Below are positions 1,145 through 14,860 of a stretch of 14,903 nt of DNA, one piece after another (position 1 is the stretch's first letter; every line of letters begins with the position of its first letter). The stretch is from a virus (taxonomy: Duplodnaviria; Heunggongvirae; Uroviricota; Caudoviricetes). Below the pieces are notes generated by a model. It saw only the letters and a program-made list of their open reading frames with translations, made no database searches and was not told the DNA's origin. The position numbers and the translations under genes are program-made. The stretch lies in the IMG/VR virus record IMGVR_UViG_3300029068_000011, positions 1-14,903 of that record; one strand, 5' to 3'.

Positions 1145-1333
1145 TCACGAGGACTGAAGTTTCTCGCAATTAAAATTTATCAGTTTTACTTTCTGCTCTC
1201 TGGAAACGCCTGCTTCTTTTTTACCTGAGAGCATTTTTTCGCATTCTGATTTCGTTAGTTTAGATTTTGAATATCTTGTCCAGTTAGTAGGAGTGCCACC
1301 TTCCTTTTCAATTGTAGCGGTAATTTTATACAT
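1145..1333 (-). CDS. ydaC: Small Rac prophage protein of unknown function
   Basis: ORF 1145..1405. Preferred start is ATG 1333 (MYKITATIEKEGG...) because it has a GGAGG Shine-Dalgarno 5 nt upstream; alternative starts at 1345 and 1405 lack one. Overlaps the ralR stop by 8 nt. Confidence 0.6.
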   Translation of the reverse strand: MYKITATIEKEGGTPTNWTRYSKSKLTKSECEKMLSGKKEAGVSREQKVKLINFNCEKLQSS

Positions 1334-8800: not shown

Positions 8801-9589
8801 ATGGCTTCAAACTGGATAAAGCTCGAAGTTATTACGCCGGATAAGCCGGAAATATTCAGGCTTGCTGAGATTCTGAATATTGATCCAGATGCCGCATTAG
8901 GGAAAGTCATTCGCTTCTGGGCATGGGCGGATCAACAAATGATAGACGGTAACGCAGAGTGTAACGCTCGCGGCGTTACAAAAAGTGCAATAGATCGCAT
9001 CACTTTTATGGCTGGTTTTGCTGATGCGTTAATTCAGGTTGGATGGCTGGTCGAAACTAATGGTGTGTTGTCGCTTCCTAACTTTGAGCGCCATAACGGG
9101 AAAAGCTCTAAAAAACGGGCGGTTACAAACGAGAGAGTAACAAAAATACGAGAACTGAAACGAAAAGGTAACGCTGCCAGCGTTACAAAAACGGATCAAA
9201 AAGCGTTACCAGAGGAAGAGAAAGAGGAAGATATAAATACTTATCTCCCCCTAAATCCCCCTCGCCAAAAACGAGCGTCTAAAAAATTCGAACCGGAGGC
9301 TATCGAGCTGCCTGACTGGTTGCCGGAAACACTCTGGCATGAGTGGGTTCAGTTCAGGCAGGCATTGCGAAAACCGATTCGAACGGAGCAGGGCGCTAAC
9401 GGGGCGATACGGGAGCTGGAAAAATTCCGCCAGCAGGGTTTTTCACCTGAGCAGGTGATTCGACACAGCATCGCCAACGAATACCAGGGCTTGTTCGCGC
9501 CGAAAGGTGTTCGACCTGAGACGTTACTCCGACAGGTTAACACCGTCTCGTTACCGGATAGTGCGATCCCGCCAGGCTTCAGGGGGTAA
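8801..9589 (+). CDS. ydaU: Putative replication initiation protein (lambda O analogue, 262 aa)
   Basis: ORF 8801..9589 (in-frame TGA 9 nt upstream of the ATG). It sits immediately upstream of the DnaC-like ydaV and contains DNA dyad repeats in its coding sequence. Function inferred from synteny. Confidence 0.75.
   Translation: MASNWIKLEVITPDKPEIFRLAEILNIDPDAALGKVIRFWAWADQQMIDGNAECNARGVTKSAIDRITFMAGFADALIQVGWLVETNGVLSLPNFERHNGKSSKKRAVTNERVTKIRELKRKGNAASVTKTDQKALPEEEKEEDINTYLPLNPPRQKRASKKFEPEAIELPDWLPETLWHEWVQFRQALRKPIRTEQGANGAIRELEKFRQQGFSPEQVIRHSIANEYQGLFAPKGVRPETLLRQVNTVSLPDSAIPPGFRG
8960..8980. repeat. Dyad tgtaacgc-tcgcg-gcgttaca inside ydaU
   Basis: Seen directly; 8-bp perfect arms. A ggtaacgc half-site lies at 8948-8955. 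Confidence 0.6.
9168..9186. repeat. Dyad gtaacgctg-c-cagcgttac inside ydaU
   Basis: Seen directly; 9-bp perfect arms. Additional GTTACAAA(A) half-sites at about 9122, 9137 and 9202. Confidence 0.6.
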
Positions 9590-9595
9590 CTGACC

Positions 9596-10342
9596 ATGAA
9601 AAATATTGCGACAGGCGACGTTCTTGAACGTATCCGCAGACTGGCCCCGTCACATGTAACCGCGCCATTCAAGACGGTAGCGGAGTGGCGCGAGTGGCAA
9701 CTTTCCGAAGGCCAGAAACGTTGTGAGGAGATCAACCGTCAGAATCGTCAGTTGCGGGTGGAAAAAATTCTGAATCGCTCTGGCATCCAGCCATTGCACC
9801 GCAAATGCTCGTTTTCGAATTACCAGGTGCAGAACGAAGGGCAGCGATACGCGTTGAGTCAGGCGAAATCCATCGCTGATGAACTGATGACCGGGTGTAC
9901 AAATTTTGCGTTCAGCGGAAAACCTGGTACCGGGAAGAATCACTTAGCGGCAGCTATCGGGAATCGCCTGCTGAAAGACGGTCAGACAGTGATTGTGGTT
10001 ACCGTGGCTGATGTTATGAGTGCCCTCCACGCCAGCTATGACGACGGGCAGTCAGGCGAAAAATTTTTGCGGGAACTGTGCGAAGTGGATCTGCTGGTTC
10101 TTGATGAAATTGGCATTCAGCGCGAGACGAAAAACGAGCAGGTGGTACTGCACCAGATTATTGATCGACGGACAGCGTCGATGCGTAGCGTGGGAATGCT
10201 GACAAACCTGAACTATGAGGCCATGAAAACATTGCTCGGCGAGCGGATTATGGATCGCATGACCATGAACGGCGGGCGATGGGTGAATTTTAACTGGGAG
10301 AGCTGGCGTCCGAATGTCGTCCAGCCAGGAATTGCGAAGTAA
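9596..10342 (+). CDS. ydaV: DnaC/IstB-like AAA+ helicase-loader ATPase (lambda P functional analogue, 248 aa)
   Basis: ORF 9596..10342. Walker [16 protein letters not shown] and Walker B LLVLDEIG are visible in the translation. Confidence 0.9.
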
Positions 10343-10364
10343 TTTTTACCGGGAGAAAAATTTA

Positions 10365-11126
10365 ATGGAGACTGTTTTTGACGCACTGAAAGCAATGGGG
10401 AAAGCTACGTCGGTAGAACTGGCTGCGCGACTTGATATCAGTCGTGAAGAAGTGCTGAACGAGCTGTGGGAACTGAAAAAGGCTGGCTTCGTTGATAAAA
10501 GCGTATACACCTGGCGCGTGGCTGATAACAACGTTCAGCAGGAACAGCCAGAGCAGGCAGAACTGCCGGAAGAAACCACCACGGCAACAGTCGCAAAAAT
10601 TTCGGAGTGCGATTTAACTGCGACGATTGAACAACGTGGCCCACAAACGGCGGATGAACTGGCTACGTTTTTCGGCATCACATCACGCAAAGTGGCTTCA
10701 ACGCTGGCAATGGCAATCAGTAAAGGTCGTCTGATTCGCGTTAATCAGAACGGTAAATTTCGTTACTGCATGCCGGGCGATAATTTACCAGCAGAGCCGA
10801 AAGCTGCATCGGTAGCGGAAACTGATGGTAAAGCCTTTCCTCAGCCAGCCGGTGTTGCGTTACCAGTACAGGAAGCGGCAACACAGGAAGATATTAAAAC
10901 AGAAACTGTGGCGGACATTGTGCAGTCGCTGCCATCGTTTACTGAAACGCAAGCGGATGACCTGGTTTTACCATCGCTGCATATGGCAAACCGCGAACTG
11001 CGTCGGGCGAAAAATCATGTCCAGAAGTGGGAGCGAGTCTGCGCCGCGCTGCGGGAGCTGAACAAGCACCGGGATATTGTCCGACAGATTGTCGATTCCT
11101 CCAGTCGTATTGTGTCGGAAAAGTGA
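10365..11126 (+). CDS. ydaW: Putative DNA-binding prophage protein, apparently full length (253 aa)
   Basis: ORF 10314..11126; start placed at ATG 10365 ([12 protein letters not shown]...) because a GGGAGA Shine-Dalgarno lies 8 nt upstream and 10314 is inside ydaV. Two winged-helix-like segments ([19 protein letters not shown] and [20 protein letters not shown]). The gene symbol is a tentative recall. Confidence 0.65.
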
Positions 11127-11141
11127 TTGCCGGAGGCGCTT

Positions 11142-11564
11142 ATGGCAAAAGTTTTTACACAGGAAGAGCGGGAAAAAATTAAAGGGCAGGTTGTTGAGCT
11201 AGTACGCCGGAGTGGACGCTAGACGTTACGGCAACTGGAAGTCAAGACAGGTGCGACAAGATATCTGATGAGCGTTCTCGCAAGAGAGCTGGTTGCCAGC
11301 GGCGATGTATACAACTCTGGTTACGGGTTATTCCCGTCTGAACAGGCGCGTAAGGACTGGCAAAATGCCCGTAAAAAGCTCTCAAGGGCAAAGCTGAAGA
11401 AACCATCTGCGGTTGATCCGGACCTTATCTGGTCATTACCTGACGGAGAAATACGTCGCTACGACAGGCGTCAGAACATAATCTGTCGCGAGTGCCGGAA
11501 GAGTGAAGTTATGCAGCGCATATTGTCGTTTTATCAGGGTGATGTTCGGTATTTATTGAAGTGA
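11142..11564 (+). pseudogene. Ren-like gene (lambda ren family) interrupted by an in-frame TAG at 11220-11222
   Basis: ATG 11142 with a GGAGG Shine-Dalgarno 5 nt upstream gives MAKVFTQEEREKIKGQVVELVRRSGR, then TAG, continuing in the same frame to 11564. The C-terminus ICRECRKSEVMQRILSFY resembles the lambda Ren C-terminus as I recall it (...KECRQSAAMKRVLAVY...). The position immediately after the replication genes agrees. Confidence 0.5.
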
Positions 11565-11710
11565 CGAGATTAAAGTGCATTAGTTCAGATGCAAATTGAC
11601 ATTTTGTGGCACAGGGTAGAGCTAGCGTGGTTGTCCGCTTTGTGCCAACAGCGGACATTATAGATGGTATATGTAGAAAGTGAACATGCGTAGATTGTAT
11701 GATTTAGCCG

Positions 11711-12520
11711 TCACTTAATTATTGGATAACTCACACAAGTATGACCGTTGCTTATCGCATACATTTGGTTTCCCTTAAGATTTACAAATGGAAATGTCGT
11801 ATACTCATAATTTATAGAGGTCATATTAAATGTAAGGAATTTATCTTCAAGTTCTAATTTTGTAGAGTGGGCAGGGTATGTTCCTTCATTTTTCATTGTG
11901 ATAATAAAACCGATAGGAAAAAAATGTAAAGCACAAATAAATGCCACATGTCCTTCGTTCATAAATGCTACACTTTGAGCGGATATGTGCATTCTGTGTG
12001 GGTAAAACCAGTAGTAAATATCATGAGTTTCCTCAAAACTTGAATTTTTACCCAAAACATAATCCTTTAAAGGTGTATAGAAGGGGCTATCTACGGGTTC
12101 TTTTTTACAATCTTCAACTGAAGTTGCTGATAGCACGTGCCCAATCATAGCCTTAGTGAAAGATATGCTATCAAAAGGTATTCTAATGAATGGATATACA
12201 TTCATACCATTCATATATCGACTTAACTGTTCTTTAAAGGACTTTGTTACATTTTCAATTGCAACATCGAGCCCACCTAATACCTTATTGTTACAGTGGC
12301 TGCAAATGGTTCTGAAATAAGAGCCATTTTTAGCATTTAATGGTTTAACTGGTTCCTGAATACCAAAAAATTCGCTAACTGTTTTCTGCAAAACAGGGCC
12401 TAAGGTTATGGCGCACTTTGGAGGAACATGATCTTTTGTGAGCAAGCCATATTTCCCACAAATATTGCAATAACCTTCAGTAATGCCATTGTGCTTCCAT
12501 CGTTCACTAATTTTCGTCAT
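11711..12520 (-). CDS. Cargo protein with an N-terminal HNH-nuclease-like zinc-knuckle motif and a roughly 180-aa C-terminal region of unknown function (269 aa)
   Basis: ORF 11711..12520 with a GAGGGA Shine-Dalgarno 7 nt upstream. Motif C18-x2-C21 ... D30-H31-V-P-P ... N ... C73-S-H-C76-N-N-K fits the HNH pattern CxxC...DH..P...N...CxxC(H/N)..K. Lies in an AT-rich segment. Confidence 0.6.
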   Translation of the reverse strand: MTKISERWKHNGITEGYCNICGKYGLLTKDHVPPKCAITLGPVLQKTVSEFFGIQEPVKPLNAKNGSYFRTICSHCNNKVLGGLDVAIENVTKSFKEQLSRYMNGMNVYPFIRIPFDSISFTKAMIGHVLSATSVEDCKKEPVDSPFYTPLKDYVLGKNSSFEETHDIYYWFYPHRMHISAQSVAFMNEGHVAFICALHFFPIGFIITMKNEGTYPAHSTKLELEDKFLTFNMTSINYEYTTFPFVNLKGNQMYAISNGHTCVSYPIIK

Positions 12521-12843
12521 TTTTATTCCCTCAGTAGCATAAGCTATCTATACGTTTTTTAATCCTATCAAAGATACAACTTAACGTCAGGAAAATGATA
12601 GTGTTTATCTAAGTAATACAATTAACTTCAACGCGTGACAGTCTGCTTTTCGCTCAAAGCGGACTAGAAGGTTAGCTTGCGTCGGACTTGGCGTATTTAA
12701 AGAAGTGCTGGTGGTGACTGGTTGTTGTGTTCCATTTCTACAGAATAAAATCACAGAAACTATACCCAATAGTTGTATTGAATCACTGACGAGACAGCCT
12801 CATATTTATCAGGACTGGTGTGCGTCTAATACAGGGGGTTGTC

Positions 12844-12933
12844 GTGCTGGTTCTCAAATGTGCGCTGGCTATTGCGGCTGTAATGGCAATTTATTGTCTT
12901 GCTGTTGTTCTTATGGAGCGGCTTTCTGATTGA
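12844..12933 (+). CDS. Candidate small hydrophobic peptide (29 aa: M/V-LVLKCALAIAAVMAIYCLAVVLMERLSD)
   Basis: GTG 12844 preceded by AGGGGG (12833-12838, 5-nt spacing). Codons are G-first-position rich (GCG, CTG, GCT, GTT). It is in a different frame from the 74-aa Cys-rich ORF in the track. Terminator about 155 nt downstream. Not confirmed. Confidence 0.3.
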   Translation: MLVLKCALAIAAVMAIYCLAVVLMERLSD

Positions 12934-13089
12934 TTACATACTGGCTAGAAAAAAGGTGTTACCTTGGTTTATCTTTGTCCGGCAAGGTGCGCTCATTAAT
13001 CTTAAGTAAATTTATTGCTCAAGTATTCAGATTACTTCTTATGGTTGAAGTCTCCTGTCAATGTAGAACCAATATATTTACAAAAATGA

Positions 13090-13117
13090 GACCCGTCGGG
13101 GATAGCCCTGCCGGGTC
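13090..13117. terminator. Bidirectional intrinsic terminator (stem gacccgtcgggg / loop atag / ccctgccgggtc)
   Basis: About 10 of 12 stem pairs. On the minus strand it is followed by TCATTTTTGT, 30 nt after the DUF1971 gene stop; on the plus strand it is preceded by an A-tract and followed by tgactgtt. Confidence 0.55.
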
Positions 13118-13147
13118 TGACTGTTAAAGCATTTTTAATATGATCAT

Positions 13148-13486
13148 CTATTTTTTGGTGCTATAGACTTTTTCGCCCGAGAAGTCTGGAGCGACCCAAA
13201 AGTTAATATTAAACAGAGCATCATCGCTTAGTTCAACACGGTGCCAGTATTGTGGTGGGCTTGTTGCAAAAGCGCCAGCATTAATGACTACTTTTATCTC
13301 CGGTTCAGTAGCATTCTCATCAGTAAAACCATAATATGTTACAGTGCCTTCCATTACGCACAACTGCCCAAAAACACCTGCTGCTGTATTATGATGTGTT
13401 AATAACGCTGAAGGTACGTTCTCTTTTGTGAAGAACGGAGTTGAGCGTTTGATTACCCAATCTTTAGGAATTCTCTTGTGTGTCAT
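13148..13486 (-). CDS. DUF1971-family protein (YeaR / TehB N-terminal-like, 112 aa)
   Basis: ORF 13148..13510; start at ATG 13486 (MTHKRIPKDW...) because a perfect GAGGAGG Shine-Dalgarno lies 5 nt upstream. The pattern RSTPF...THHNTAAGVFGQL...G.V.YYGF...EP......AG.FA..PPQYWH.....DD..FNI.FWV resembles YeaR-type proteins as I recall them. Confidence 0.65.
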   Translation of the reverse strand: MTHKRIPKDWVIKRSTPFFTKENVPSALLTHHNTAAGVFGQLCVMEGTVTYYGFTDENATEPEIKVVINAGAFATSPPQYWHRVELSDDALFNINFWVAPDFSGEKVYSTKK

Positions 13487-13508
13487 AACCACCTCCTCAA
13501 AAACATGC

Positions 13509-13541
13509 ATTATAAATGCGTGTTTTTGAGGGTTATGTCAA
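13509..13541 (-). promoter_or_regulatory. Candidate promoter for the DUF1971 gene: -35 TTGACA (13536-13541) with -10 ATTTAT (18-nt spacer) or a perfect TATAAT (13509-13514, 21-nt spacer)
   Basis: Hexamers read on the minus strand. The spacing is non-ideal for the perfect -10, hence low confidence. Confidence 0.3.
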
Positions 13542-14299
13542 GCTGTTATGAAACACATAATTGATATGTTGATTAGAGGAGAAGATATAATAAATATGGT
13601 TGTTTTTCGTATAACTATTTGTTTTACTTTTAGTTTATGCATTCTGTGTGTTAGGAATAAGTTATTAAAGTTTAATCAAAAAATCTCGATGTAGTCTACA
13701 TAGATTATTGTTACTGAACCTTATTGTGTGTATTAGTTGTGTTCTGAAATTTCAGCTTAATTATTTATGATGTATTTTTTAACGATAAATATTTTCCCAG
13801 GATACCTTTACTGTGTATATAAATAAATTATATACACATAAATAATGTAAAGGCGTCCTTTTAGATATATCTTATCAAATGTTAATGACTTGAGTGGGAA
13901 ATATGATTCCAGCAACTTATCATGTGGCTACTTTATAAAAATAATGCCCATATAAAACAACAAGCGAAAAGGATTACGGATAAAAAAGGAGCGAGATGTG
14001 CGAACTTGTTATTTTCCATGTTTAACCACCTTAAATAATTGATGATGACGGGATGATTGCATCTGTAATGCTTTTATTGAAATGTTATGATAAAAAAGAA
14101 CTTTTGCATAACATTAAAATGTAATTTATCTAATCGTTTTTAATAATAAATGTCGTATTTCTATCCTTGTACCAGCTATTTGATATGTAGTGTTTGTTCA
14201 TGCTATGTGGGGCTTTACACCATAGCCAGTTTATTTATACTTTATTCGTCAGCCTGAACAACTGGCATCTGCTGCGCTGCGTCATCGAGAGATTGAGAA

Positions 14300-14860
14300 A
14301 TGGCGCATATACAACTGGTCAAACAAACCTCTTCTGGTTTACTTCTCCCGGCGACGCCGGAGAGTTGCGATTTTTTGCATCAAATCAAAATAGGTGAGTG
14401 GATACACGCAGACTTTAAGCGTGTGCGTAACTACGCATTCCACAAGCGTTTTTTCAAACTCCTGCAACTGGGATTCGATTACTGGACTCCGGTCGGTGGG
14501 GCGATCACGCCTCGCGAACGAAAACTGGTATCGGGCTTCGTTGATTACTTGTGCGAATCAGTAGGTCGGGAACACACTCCAGCCCTGAGTGATGCCGCAG
14601 AGCAATACCTTAATACCGTTGCGACATGCAGAACCCGGGATACGGCATTGCTAAAGTCGTTTGACGCTTTCCGCGAGTGGGTAACCATTCAGGCAGGATT
14701 TTACACCGAGTATATTTATCCTGATGGTAGTCGTGGGCGCAGGGCAAAATCTATCGCATTTGCGAACATGGACGAAACCGAGTTTCAGCAGGTTTATAAA
14801 TCTGTACTGAATGTGCTGTGGAACTGTGATCCTACCCACGTAATATGGACACAGGCCTAA
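14300..14860 (+). CDS. Conserved phage hypothetical protein (186 aa), probably a nin-region-type gene
   Basis: ORF 14300..14860 with a coding-like composition that contrasts with the upstream AT-rich spacer. Weak Shine-Dalgarno (gagag). No recognisable motif. Confidence 0.55.
   Translation: MAHIQLVKQTSSGLLLPATPESCDFLHQIKIGEWIHADFKRVRNYAFHKRFFKLLQLGFDYWTPVGGAITPRERKLVSGFVDYLCESVGREHTPALSDAAEQYLNTVATCRTRDTALLKSFDAFREWVTIQAGFYTEYIYPDGSRGRRAKSIAFANMDETEFQQVYKSVLNVLWNCDPTHVIWTQA

What the first reader, a model, noticed from the sequence alone, without database searches (positions are those of the whole stretch)
11566..14299. AT-rich cargo island between the replication module and a nin-like gene, carrying an HNH-motif protein of unknown function
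The segment is visibly more AT-rich than the flanking prophage genes, which suggests a horizontally acquired moron. Its largest gene (11711..12520, minus strand) encodes 269 aa with an N-terminal CxxC...DH..P...N...CxxCNxK pattern typical of HNH (beta-beta-alpha-metal) nucleases, fused to about 180 residues I cannot assign to any family. Prophage morons at this position often carry anti-phage defence or abortive-infection genes, so a stand-alone HNH nuclease with a novel C-terminal domain is a plausible uncharacterised defence effector. Neighbours are a possible small hydrophobic peptide ORF and a DUF1971 gene, each with its own expression signals.
Basis: partly seen in the sequence, partly recalled or inferred. 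Interest (0 to 1): 0.7.

Follow-up and report, generated by a model that had tools for sequence, protein, structure and literature searches.

The report
Mobile HNH-like nuclease cassette in Rac prophage
A 1-kb mobile gene cassette in a variable cargo slot of the E. coli Rac prophage encodes an uncharacterised HNH-type zinc-finger nuclease whose relatives sit in validated anti-phage hotspots, so it is a good but untested candidate for a new single-gene phage-defence nuclease.

Summary
Window 11566-14299 has 35.7% G+C against about 51% in the flanks. It carries an intact 269-aa ORF (11711-12520, minus), a DUF1971 gene and a small hydrophobic ORF.

The segment is not one island. It is a mosaic of at least three modules in a Rac prophage.

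The gene is always alone. The same cassette, or relatives of it, lie in the P2 Z/fun hotspot, the P4 int-psu hotspot, integron arrays, an inovirus and conjugative plasmids.

In the window the gene fills a slot bounded by two related 24-bp palindromes. Elsewhere that slot carries PD-T7-1, PD-T7-5, Tmn and a ThsA-like protein. A defence role is well supported by context but remains untested.

The parts
11142..11564 (+). DUF977 / Ren-like (LygF, YdaW-type) gene forming the left conserved flank of the cargo slot. In this window it carries a premature stop at codon 27 (11220-11222).
   Evidence: Pfam DUF977 5e-18 and PHROG 142 Ren-like. PGAP annotation of near-identical loci. Translation shows a stop where L001 has Glu.
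11633..11656 (.). Palindrome A (GTCCGCTTTGTGCCAACAGCGGAC), the left boundary of the cassette.
   Evidence: Pattern search found 0 matches expected by chance. Homology with P2-like phage pro147 and with plasmid NZ_CP020517 begins exactly here. DNA hairpin -9.3 kcal/mol, z -3.5. A-type copies pair with B-type copies around variable cargo in 56 of 73 consecutive pairs in IMG/VR contigs.
11711..12520 (-). 269-aa HNH-like (His-Me finger, four-Cys zinc) protein with an uncharacterised C-terminal part. It is the only gene of the cassette (WP_000161640.1).
12527..12532 (-). Shine-Dalgarno sequence GAGGGA, 6 nt upstream of the ATG of the 269-aa gene.
   Evidence: Read directly from the sequence.
12533..12640 (-). 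5' leader and presumed promoter region that travels with the gene. It is shared up to 12606 with pro147 and throughout with the plasmid copy.
   Evidence: Alignments of the three contexts. No consensus sigma-70 site was found on this strand, so the promoter is inferred, not shown.
12641..12664 (.). Palindrome B (GTCTGCTTTTCGCTCAAAGCGGAC), the right boundary of the cassette and the left edge of the conserved block.
   Evidence: 32-nt direct repeat with A at 72%; 37-nt inverted repeat at 76%. Homology with the plasmid copy breaks inside this palindrome. Conservation with phages Tritos and Evi starts here.
12665..12945 (+). Conserved ~290-bp block shared with lambdoid phages Tritos, Evi and mEp460. 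It contains a 29-aa hydrophobic ORF (12844-12933, VLVLKCALAIAAVMAIYCLAVVLMERLSD). In those phages it precedes hokD/mokW, which is absent here.
   Evidence: Differences inside the ORF are mostly synonymous (read by eye from the alignment). No Rfam or NCBIfam hit.
13148..13486 (-). DUF1971 (TehB N-terminal domain-like, YeaR-like) gene. It is a separate module, not linked to the HNH-like gene.
   Evidence: Pfam DUF1971 1.2e-25, NCBIfam TehB N-terminal region 2.5e-12, PHROG 34268. Shared at 94.6% with phage vB_EcoS-666R9, which has a different upstream cargo.
13487..14299 (.). AT-rich (about 30% G+C) spacer of about 800 bp with no ORF above 48 aa, between the divergent DUF1971 and ninB-like genes.
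   Evidence: It travels with the DUF1971 module. Not analysed further.
14300..14860 (+). DUF1367 / NinB-like gene forming the right conserved flank (start of the nin region).
   Evidence: Pfam DUF1367 2.7e-86; PHROG 319 NinB/Orf 2.6e-59.

Best explanation
The 269-aa ORF is the sole gene of a ~1-kb mobile cassette (11633-12664). The cassette is lodged in a variable-cargo slot of a Rac-type lambdoid prophage, between the ren-like DUF977 gene and the nin region.

The ORF encodes a member of a large unnamed family of stand-alone HNH (His-Me finger) enzymes. Two CxxC pairs (C18/C21 and C73/C76) would hold a structural zinc. D30-H31 at the end of a beta-strand, and N77 at the start of the following long helix, would form the catalytic metal site. 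This is the D-H...N arrangement of Cas9-type and GVE2-type HNH domains (the Cas9 comparison is from my own knowledge, not tested here). The beta-hairpin is interrupted by a ~35-residue insert.

The module is packed into one compact body with a C-terminal alpha/beta part. That part contains the invariant GH128 and an aromatic Y-Y-W171-F-Y-P motif, and has no solved structural analogue.

The most likely function is a single-protein anti-phage (anti-MGE) DNA nuclease expressed from the lysogen, antisense to the phage early operon. In this model the C-terminal part supplies target or trigger recognition, either of modified or foreign DNA in the manner of a type IV restriction enzyme such as McrA, or of a phage cue. 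The HNH site then cuts.

**Shown:** an intact gene, conserved catalytic and zinc residues, a confident compact model, cassette mobility, hotspot context, and the absence of any partner gene.

**Inferred:** expression in the lysogen, nuclease activity, the identity of the target, and the sensor role of the C-terminal part.
For: **Family and motif.**
- Full-length conservation across 1801 cluster representatives, 355 of them at E<1e-30.
- C18, C21, H31, P33, P34, C73, C76, N77, D85, G127, H128, W171, P202 and P244 are invariant in 51 members at 21-45% identity to the window protein. D30 is at least 90% conserved.

**HNH nature.**
- Pfam HNH_5 is hit by 9 of 51 members (best 9.8e-5) and Endonuclease VII by one (2e-3).
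- One member hits the Septu HNH protein PtuB at 5.4e-5.
- The N-domain profile lines up both sub-motifs with the GVE2 HNH endonuclease 4h9d, although the E-value of 3.3 is not significant.
- The model's secondary-structure order is strand 24-31 ending in D-H, strand 68-73, then helix 74-103 starting at CxxCN.

**Defence context.**
- The same cassette, at 94.5% nucleotide identity, sits between tail-fibre assembly gene G and sheath gene FI of P2-like phages. That is the fun/Z locus, described as a defence-enriched hotspot holding three validated systems (PMC9519451).
- A homologue lies between int and psu of a P4-like satellite, the hotspot of PMC9122126.
- Other homologues are cargo of a Vibrio inovirus, of a lambdoid prophage next to terminase, and of a serine-recombinase island.
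- Homologues are integron cassettes in V. mimicus, and in a Plesiomonas array that also holds AbiU2-HEPN and Shedu SduA_C genes.
- Among 149 immediate neighbours in 80 species there are CBASS cyclases (3), Mrr (3), PtuA-like proteins (2), AbiTii, nSTAND3 and recombinases.
- In the palindrome-bounded slot of 55 IMG/VR contigs there are at least 27 alternative cargos, including PD-T7-1 (4e-157), PD-T7-5, Tmn, ThsA-like, LmuA-like and PDC-S07/15/25/39/51 proteins.

**No partner.** No neighbour recurs except small recombinases, found in 13 of 80 loci.
Against: - This protein passes no curated threshold: HNH_5 E 0.29, PADLOC no hit, NCBIfam no hit.
- I could not inspect coordinates, so the geometry of the putative active site is unverified.
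- Hotspots and integron arrays also carry non-defence cargo. The same slot holds BCCT/DUF2254 transporter-type genes, LysR regulators, MFS and NUDIX+HAD. Context therefore raises the prior for defence but does not prove it.
- No promoter was found by the consensus scan.
- No paper or accession match links the family to a phenotype. The E. coli functional selections and predictions I read do not list it.
- A constitutive nuclease with no immunity partner needs a self/non-self rule that I cannot identify.
Confidence: 0.5

Rival explanations
1. It is a free-standing HNH homing endonuclease. On this view it is a selfish gene that cuts cognate sites lacking it and spreads by repair, with the C-terminal part as its DNA-binding domain and no benefit to the host.
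For: - Its size and layout (an N-terminal HNH plus a C-terminal domain of about 180 aa) resemble phage free-standing endonucleases (my own knowledge of the T4 Mob and I-HmuI types).
- It is an AT-rich single gene inserted between conserved phage genes.
- It has a patchy presence/absence distribution: 149 of 5426 E. coli genomes.
Against: - The same cassette, at 94.5% identity or more, sits in three unrelated sites: the Rac ren-nin slot, the P2 G/FI slot, and plasmid accessory regions. Relatives sit in P4, inovirus, integron and chromosomal-island sites. That is not what site-specific homing produces.
- The slots it occupies exchange many unrelated cargos without any endonuclease.
- It is transcribed antisense to the phage operons, as morons are, rather than with lytic genes.
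- Small recombinases and attC sites provide other routes of mobility.
Confidence: 0.12
2. It is not a nuclease. The four cysteines form a structural zinc ribbon in a protein with another role, such as a regulator, a nucleic-acid or protein binder, or a lysogenic-conversion factor that benefits the host in ways unrelated to phage.
For: - No curated HNH model is passed by this protein.
- Structural similarity to HNH domains is weak.
- Databases name it only 'metal-binding protein' or 'chaperonin'.
- The same slot also carries metabolic, transport and regulator cargo.
Against: - The residues that matter for HNH catalysis, not only the cysteines, are invariant or nearly so across very distant members: D30 (at least 90%), H31, N77.
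- Nine members reach HNH_5 at E of 0.01 or better, and others hit PtuB and Endonuclease VII.
- The best structural match of the N-domain, out of 48,164 chains, is an HNH domain.
Confidence: 0.15
3. It is a nuclease used in competition between mobile elements or as an addiction or toxin function, for example exclusion of rival plasmids or prophages, or post-segregational killing, rather than defence against lytic phages.
For: - An identical protein is carried on 60 PLSDB plasmids, 44 of them conjugative, in Klebsiella, E. coli, Shigella and Enterobacter. There it lies in accessory regions beside TA modules and IS elements.
- It is always carried by mobile elements.
Against: - No antitoxin-like or immunity partner is conserved next to it in 80 loci, and an addiction module would need one.
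- Its hotspot neighbours are anti-phage systems.
- This rival overlaps with the main explanation, since anti-MGE and anti-phage nucleases are not exclusive.
Confidence: 0.15

Closest known systems
HNH / His-Me finger endonucleases with a four-Cys zinc site (Pfam HNH_5 PF14279; GVE2 HNH endonuclease, PDB 4h9d/5h0o; group 1 and group 8 of Jablonska et al. 2017, PMC5714182)
   Same: - The motif is CxxC ... D-H ... CxxC-N in the same order.
- His lies at the end of a beta-strand and Asn in the first turn of the following helix.
- Both sub-motifs align with GVE2 HNH.
- Relatives give sub-threshold HNH_5 hits.
   Different: - A ~35-residue insert (residues 32-67, with its own strands and helix) splits the beta-hairpin.
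- No model threshold is passed.
- The module is not an independent domain. It is packed with a ~165-residue C-terminal part of unknown fold, and the family is conserved only as the whole 270-aa unit.
McrA-type (type IV) restriction nucleases encoded by prophages (E. coli McrA on e14)
   Same: A stand-alone HNH nuclease of about 270 aa, carried by a cryptic lambdoid prophage, with no methyltransferase partner and a second domain that would supply specificity.
   Different: - The domain order is reversed: HNH is N-terminal here and C-terminal in McrA.
- No sequence similarity was detected: the PDB profile search found only GVE2 HNH, at a non-significant E-value.
- Recognition of modified DNA is pure inference.
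Sirona and Nemetona, single-gene His-Me-finger anti-phage cassettes of the Vibrio cholerae chromosomal integron (Darracq et al. 2024, bioRxiv 10.1101/2024.07.02.601686)
   Same: - They are single small genes distantly related to HNH nucleases and carried as integron cassettes.
- Sirona is reported in 34 genera of Pseudomonadota.
- Members of the present family are also integron cassettes in Vibrio and Plesiomonas.
   Different: - They are described as related to a type II restriction domain and to lambda NinG, which I did not see here.
- None of the named hits is a V. cholerae protein on a chromosome-sized contig, so N16961 probably lacks a close member. Other V. cholerae strains do carry one.
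- Relationship untested.
Validated single-gene or small cargo systems of prophage hotspots (P2 fun/Z, old, tin; PD-T7-1, PD-T7-5, Tmn)
   Same: - They are moron-like: AT-rich and mostly single genes.
   Different: - There is no sequence relationship: PADLOC gives no hit, and tblastn against phage genomes finds only pro147 and a fragment.
- No phenotype is known.

Membership tests
HNH / His-Me finger superfamily | Catalytic His at the C-terminal end of a beta-strand, preceded by Asp or Glu, and conserved across the family | tested here: met
   H31 is invariant and D30 is at least 90% conserved in 51 members at 21-45% identity to the window protein. The model puts D30-H31 at the end of strand 24-31.
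HNH / His-Me finger superfamily | Metal-binding Asn or His in the alpha-helix that follows the hairpin (beta-beta-alpha-metal topology) | tested here: inconclusive
   N77 is invariant and lies in the first turn of helix 74-103, after strand 68-73. The topology order therefore fits. I could not read coordinates to check that D30, H31 and N77 converge. A 35-aa insert splits the hairpin.
HNH / His-Me finger superfamily | Two CxxC pairs forming the structural zinc site found in many HNH families | tested here: met
   C18, C21, C73 and C76 are invariant. They align with the CxxC pairs of GVE2 HNH.
HNH / His-Me finger superfamily | Significant structural similarity to a solved HNH domain | tested here: inconclusive
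   [not shown]
HNH / His-Me finger superfamily | Metal-dependent nuclease activity | not testable with these tools
   Needs purified protein and active-site mutants.
Pfam HNH_5 (PF14279) | Score at or above the gathering threshold (27.5 bits) | tested here: not met
   The window protein scores 11.6 bits (E 0.29), covering residues 18-35 only. Nine of 51 relatives match at E of 0.01 or better, best 9.8e-5. The protein is related to this family but is not a member by Pfam's rule.
Known anti-phage defence systems (PADLOC-DB v2.0.0) | Match to a model of a known or candidate defence protein | tested here: not met
   The window protein has no hit. Among 51 relatives there are only single weak hits (PtuB 5.4e-5, Cas11a, PDC-M01B). 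Newer DefenseFinder models were not available.
Anti-phage defence genes in general (guilt by association) | Recurrent location in defence hotspots or next to known defence genes, across unrelated genomes | tested here: met
   P2 fun/Z slot. P4 int-psu slot. A slot sharing cargo space with PD-T7-1, PD-T7-5, Tmn and a ThsA-like protein. Neighbours include CBASS, Mrr, PtuA, AbiTii, Shedu and AbiU2. No formal enrichment statistic was computed.
Anti-phage defence genes in general | Protection phenotype against phages | not testable with these tools
   No published test was found.
Septu PtuB-type HNH effectors | An HNH protein encoded next to, and acting with, a PtuA ABC-type ATPase | tested here: not met
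   There is no conserved partner in 80 loci. PtuA-like neighbours occur in only 2 of 149 flanking genes. The window gene stands alone between palindromes.
Free-standing homing endonucleases | Insertion at one cognate target site, with intact 'empty' alleles elsewhere | tested here: not met
   The same cassette is found in three unrelated sites, and relatives in many more.
Integron gene cassettes | A single promoter-less ORF flanked by attC repeats in an array | tested here: inconclusive
   Met for relatives: the V. mimicus gene lies between VCR-type repeats, and the Plesiomonas gene lies between copies of an 8-copy ~139-nt repeat. Not met for the window copy, whose 24-bp palindromes are far shorter than attC sites and lack the GTTRRRY core (sequence; the attC features are from my own knowledge).

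The most novel reading that the evidence does not exclude
The slot between the ren-like gene and the nin region of Rac-type lambdoid prophages may be an integron-like cassette site.

On this reading, cassettes are delimited by two related ~24-bp hairpin-forming palindromes, A and B, and can be stacked as A-cargo-A-cargo-B. They are exchanged between lambdoid phages, P2-like phages and conjugative plasmids by recombination at the palindromes. The enzyme might be a 200-aa, catalytic-domain-only tyrosine recombinase found beside the broken B site on plasmids and inside some slots.

The HNH-like gene would be one such cassette, and the founding member of a new single-protein nuclease defence family with a previously unseen sensor fold.

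The evidence does not exclude this reading:
- Homology breakpoints fall at the edge of A or inside B.
- 56 of 73 consecutive pairs have the same A-to-B order, around at least 27 different cargos.
- The recombinase copies are 93% identical in the two contexts.

The palindromes could equally be short conserved 'linker' sequences that merely favour homologous exchange, and no compensatory covariation supports a selected structure.
Probability: 0.15. Interest if true: 0.8.

Novelty: new variant of a known kind. Interest (0 to 1): 0.58.

Why it matters
**If the gene defends against phages.** It would add a compact 269-aa, partner-less HNH nuclease family to the list of bacterial immune proteins.
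- The family is widespread: about 1800 clusters at 50% identity, from Gammaproteobacteria to Cyanobacteria and Nitrospirota.
- It moves on prophages, satellites, integrons and conjugative resistance-type plasmids of Klebsiella, E. coli and Shigella.
- Its C-terminal part has no solved analogue and could reveal a new way of telling foreign from self DNA.

**The slot.** The palindrome-bounded slot is a practical handle. Scanning for A...B pairs retrieves a catalogue of cargo in which validated systems (PD-T7-1, PD-T7-5, Tmn) sit beside dozens of unknown genes. It could be mined as the P2 and P4 hotspots were.

**If the gene has no phage phenotype.** It is still a well-defined, highly mobile family that current annotation mislabels as 'chaperonin' or 'metal-binding protein'.

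Tried and rejected
**Searches that gave nothing useful.**
- The window protein against Pfam, NCBIfam and PADLOC gave no usable hit. PHROGs gave only an unnamed family of unknown function, phrog_21495.
- A profile search of PDB sequences with the full family found only a chance hit, dethiobiotin synthetase at E 0.64.
- The afdb50 library was not available.
- Rfam on the window and, with relaxed thresholds, on the island found only the known RalA far upstream and a chance miRNA match.
- Papers and supplements were searched for WP_000161640, for peptide strings, and for any description of the family or of a lambdoid ren-nin hotspot. Nothing was found.
- I could not obtain Sirona or Nemetona sequences to test identity.
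- NCBIfam found nothing for the 29-aa peptide or for the 444-aa cargo of phage Tritos.

**Ideas rejected.**
- A conserved partner gene, such as a PtuA-like ATPase, an antitoxin or a methylase: none recurs in 80 loci.
- Compensatory covariation in the palindrome stems: the counts look like independent variation, so I make no such claim.
- The palindromes as intrinsic terminators: neither strand has a T-run after them (sequence), and neither is among the terminator-like sites listed by the scan.
- The whole 2.7-kb segment as one island: only 20 of 5426 E. coli genomes hold the full arrangement, whereas 149 hold the cassette.


Full report
**1. The observation**

The window is a Rac prophage of E. 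coli. A near-identical chromosome (99.9% over 14.7 kb) is annotated with this gene order: intR, xisR, ralR, recT, recE, kilR, sieB, racR, ydaS, ydaT, a hypothetical gene (a YdaU-family replication initiator in a related record), ydaV, a DUF1627 gene, a DUF977 gene, the gene in question, a DUF1971 gene and a DUF1367 gene.

The reported segment really is AT-rich. G+C is 0.357 over 11566-14299, against 0.508 for 9000-11565 and 0.488 for the ninB-like gene. Values by part are 0.349 for the 269-aa CDS and 0.298 for the spacer 13511-14299.

The ORF at 11711..12520 (minus, 269 aa) is intact. It is preceded by GAGGGA 6 nt before the ATG.
- a DUF1971 gene (Pfam 1.2e-25);
- a DUF1367 gene that PHROGs files with NinB/Orf;
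- a Ren-like DUF977 gene on the left.

**2. The segment is a mosaic, not one island**

Only 20 of 5426 complete E. coli genomes hold the whole 3-kb arrangement. By contrast, 149 hold the ~1-kb piece with the 269-aa gene, 29 of them on plasmids.

- The DUF1971 gene, the AT-rich spacer and the start of ninB form one block. It recurs at 94.6% in phage vB_EcoS-666R9 behind a different cargo.
- Window ~12665-12945 is a second block. It is more than 90% identical in phages Tritos and Evi, where it precedes hokD/mokW.
- That second block holds a 29-aa hydrophobic ORF (12844-12933). Its few differences between copies are mostly synonymous, as read by eye from the alignment.

**3. The 269-aa protein**

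It matches no Pfam, NCBIfam or PADLOC model. HNH_5 appears only at E 0.29, over residues 18-35. The only strong hit is PHROG 21495, of unknown function.

It nevertheless belongs to a large family. There are 93 close hits in Enterobacterales, Vibrio, Pseudomonas and others, named 'chaperonin', 'metal-binding protein' or 'hypothetical'. A profile search of 1.84 billion representatives gave 1801 proteins at E<1e-3 and 355 at E<1e-30. Almost all are 260-290 aa and match end to end.

In 51 members that are 21-45% identical to the window protein, these residues are invariant: C18, C21, H31, P33, P34, C73, C76, N77, D85, G127, H128, W171, P202 and P244. D30 is kept in at least 90%.

**4. Is it an HNH domain?**

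Evidence for:
- Nine of the 51 members hit Pfam HNH_5 (best 9.8e-5) and one hits Endonuclease VII.
- One member hits the Septu HNH protein PtuB at 5.4e-5.
- A profile of residues 1-112 aligns both sub-motifs with the GVE2 phage HNH endonuclease ('G-C-x-x-CG...LT-DH-P' and 'C-x-x-CNN'). Because of the long insert the E-value (3.3) is not significant.
- The AlphaFold model of the full protein is confident (pLDDT 92.3, pTM 0.91). It places D30-H31 at the end of strand 24-31, and C73-x2-C76-N77 at the junction of strand 68-73 and a long helix 74-103. Residues 32-67 form an insert.

Evidence against:
- No threshold is passed.

My reading is that the N-terminal part is a divergent, insert-bearing, zinc-braced His-Me finger (probability about 0.75-0.8). 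The rest of the compact body, with the GH128 and Y-Y-W-F-Y-P motifs, is a fold without a solved analogue.

**5. Context: always alone, always on mobile elements, often in defence hotspots**

- *P2-like phages.* The same cassette, at 94.5% nucleotide identity, lies in P2-like phage pro147 and in a P2-like prophage of an O157:H7 strain. It sits between the tail-fibre assembly gene and the sheath gene, on the opposite strand. This is the fun/Z locus, which Vassallo et al. describe as a second defence-enriched locus of P2-like phages containing three of their validated systems (PMC9519451).
- *P4-like satellite.* A Serratia fonticola homologue lies between int and psu of a P4-like satellite. This is the hotspot of Rousset et al. 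(PMC9122126).
- *Other elements.* Other homologues lie at the end of a Vibrio inovirus beside a DUF2726 gene, before the terminase of an Enterobacter prophage, beside P2 gpD in Serratia, and in a serine-recombinase island that splits an FKBP gene in Pseudomonas.
- *Integron arrays.* In V. mimicus the gene lies between VCR-type attC repeats. In Plesiomonas it lies between copies of an 8-copy repeat array that also carries AbiU2-HEPN, Fic, PLD and Shedu SduA_C genes.
- *Plasmids.* An identical protein is on 60 PLSDB plasmids, 44 of them conjugative, of Klebsiella, E. coli, Shigella and Enterobacter.
- *Species spread.* A pattern scan of 185,579 species genomes confirmed 157 relatives. They reach Betaproteobacteria, Geobacteraceae, Leptolyngbya, Nitrospirota and MAGs of Bacillota and Planctomycetota.
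- *Neighbours.* Clustering all neighbours in 80 of these loci shows no conserved partner. The only recurrent neighbour is a small serine recombinase, in 13 of 80 loci. Among 149 immediate neighbours there are CBASS cyclases (3), Mrr (3), PtuA-like ATPases (2), AbiTii, nSTAND3, integrases, resolvases and IS66. Elsewhere there are HsdS, a RES toxin and a MORC-like ATPase.

**6. The slot and its palindromes (beyond the original finding)**

The cassette in the window is bracketed by two related 24-bp palindromes in the same orientation:
- A at 11633-11656: GTCCGCTTTGTGCCAACAGCGGAC
- B at 12641-12664: GTCTGCTTTTCGCTCAAAGCGGAC

No such match is expected by chance, and repeat finding confirms the pair.

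Homology with pro147 and with the plasmid copy starts exactly at A. It ends near 12606 in pro147 and inside B in the plasmid. Conservation with Tritos and Evi starts at B.

In those contigs:
- 56 of 73 consecutive pairs have the order A then B;
- spacings run from 572 to 6712 bp;
- at least 27 different gene contents occupy the slot;
- A-A-B arrangements, meaning stacked cargos, also occur.

The 269-aa gene fills 8 of 55 slots. It is always alone and always antisense to the A-to-B direction.

The other cargos include strong PADLOC matches to PD-T7-1 (4e-157), PD-T7-5, Tmn, and DrmD-like, ThsA-like, LmuA-like, CARF-adenosine-deaminase and PDC-S07/15/25/39/51 proteins. They also include plainly non-defence genes: BCCT and DUF2254, LysR, MFS, NUDIX+HAD, ChaC and GNAT.

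So the slot is a mixed cargo hotspot with a strong defence component.

I cannot say what the palindromes do.
- They fold as modest DNA hairpins: A -9.3 kcal/mol with z -3.5, and B -6.8 kcal/mol with z -1.45.
- They lack T-runs.
- They show no clean compensatory changes.
- On the plasmid a 200-aa tyrosine recombinase gene begins 63 bp beyond the broken B palindrome. It has only the catalytic domain and is Xer/integron-integrase/FimB-like. It is 93% identical to a gene inside some lambdoid slots.

This may point to site-specific exchange. Alternatively, the palindromes may be conserved linker sequences that favour homologous exchange between mosaic phages, an older idea in lambdoid genomics that I cite from my own knowledge.

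**7. Mechanism**

The best-supported reading is a stand-alone, lysogen-expressed HNH DNA nuclease that protects the host, and so the prophage, plasmid or satellite, from incoming phages or other elements.

The invariant D-H...N and four-Cys residues argue that catalysis is retained. The absence of any partner means that self/non-self discrimination or activation must lie in the protein itself, most plausibly in the conserved C-terminal part.

Two sub-models cannot be separated here:
- a type IV-like enzyme that recognises modified or otherwise marked DNA, as the prophage-encoded McrA does;
- a latent nuclease switched on by a phage cue, which would be abortive infection.

Rivals are a homing endonuclease, a non-catalytic zinc protein, and an inter-MGE competition or addiction function.
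- The homing endonuclease is disfavoured by the many unrelated insertion sites.
- The non-catalytic protein is disfavoured by conservation of the catalytic residues.
- The competition or addiction function has no immunity partner, and it overlaps with defence.

**8. What is known, and novelty**

I found no paper, accession or model that names this family.

The nearest described things are:
- the HNH_5 and GVE2-type zinc HNH nucleases: same motif, but membership by Pfam's rule is not met;
- McrA: similar logic, no detected homology;
- the single-gene His-Me-finger integron cassettes Sirona and Nemetona of V. cholerae (Darracq et al. 2024). I could not test whether they are related.

It is a new variant of a known kind: an unnamed HNH-derived family with a novel fold partner, riding in known and newly delineated cargo hotspots. 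A specialist would not be astonished by another nuclease candidate in a hotspot. However, the breadth of carriers, the clean single-gene architecture and the palindrome-bounded slot make it a worthwhile and directly testable candidate.

Noticed in passing
window 11633-11656 and 12641-12664; also L014, L015, L017, L098, L103, L163, L217 and at least 119 IMG/VR contigs (L100 onward): Two related 24-bp palindromes (A and B) bracket a variable-cargo slot after the ren-like gene of Rac-type lambdoid phages. 56 of 73 consecutive pairs have the order A then B, around at least 27 different cargos, and stacked A-A-B arrays occur. Palindrome A also travels with the cassette into P2-like phages, and both palindromes travel with it onto plasmids. 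No compensatory covariation was found, and their function is unknown.
   Followed up: partly
window 12844-12933 (+), inside the conserved block 12665-12945: A 29-aa hydrophobic ORF (VLVLKCALAIAAVMAIYCLAVVLMERLSD) with a GGGGG-rich ribosome-binding site upstream. It is conserved in phages Tritos and Evi, with mostly synonymous differences as read by eye from the alignment. In those phages the block lies just upstream of hokD/mokW, which is missing here. There is no Rfam or NCBIfam match. It may be a small membrane peptide or a toxin-like gene.
   Followed up: partly
L098:8072-8674 (plasmid NZ_CP020517) and L217:7857-8462 / L103: A 200-aa tyrosine recombinase with only the catalytic domain (weak Xer, integron-integrase and FimB-type invertase matches). 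It starts 63 bp beyond the broken B palindrome on the plasmid. It is 93% identical to a cargo gene inside some lambdoid slots.
   Followed up: partly
window 11220-11222 (codon 27 of the DUF977 gene, 11142-11564): The ren-like DUF977 gene carries a premature TAA stop where the near-identical locus L001 has GAA (Glu). It is probably a pseudogene in this strain, or is re-initiated at Met43.
   Followed up: yes
window 13487-14299: A spacer of about 800 bp at about 30% G+C, with no ORF above 48 aa, between the divergent DUF1971 and ninB-like genes. It is conserved with the DUF1971 module in other phages. It could hold promoters, an H-NS-bound region or an unannotated RNA.
   Followed up: no
L040 (Vibrio mimicus, gene 629-1435) and L010 (Plesiomonas shigelloides, gene 10001-10813): Homologues of the 269-aa protein are integron-type cassettes. 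In V. mimicus the gene is flanked by VCR-type attC repeats. In Plesiomonas it is flanked by copies of an 8-copy ~139-nt repeat array that also carries AbiU2-HEPN, Fic, PLD and Shedu SduA_C genes.
   Followed up: partly
L098:3328-8032 (plasmid NZ_CP020517): On the plasmid, a BCCT transporter plus a DUF2254 gene lie between two A-type palindromes directly next to the HNH-like cassette. The same BCCT+DUF2254 pair is cargo of a lambdoid slot (L163). A stretch of a prophage cassette array therefore seems to have moved onto conjugative plasmids.
   Followed up: partly
L219:11906-12541 (E. coli LR-29-1) and several other records: In some strains the gene is shortened to 636 nt by a 1-bp indel. PGAP names it 'chaperonin', and elsewhere 'metal-binding protein'. 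Both names appear to be uninformative.
   Followed up: no
window 1149-1327 (+): Rfam finds the RalA antitoxin sRNA of the RalR/RalA type I toxin-antitoxin system (218 bits). It is a known feature of Rac and unrelated to the finding.
   Followed up: no
L014:2903-4237 (phage Tritos), L017:2054-3421 (E. coli Combat13F7), and cargo clusters c3, c4, c6 and c7: Several frequent occupants of the same slot were recorded: proteins of 444 aa, 595 aa, 449 aa and 348 aa, and a 99+318-aa pair. The 444-aa Tritos protein has no NCBIfam match; the others were not mapped individually to any family. They are further candidates for unknown defence genes.
   Followed up: no
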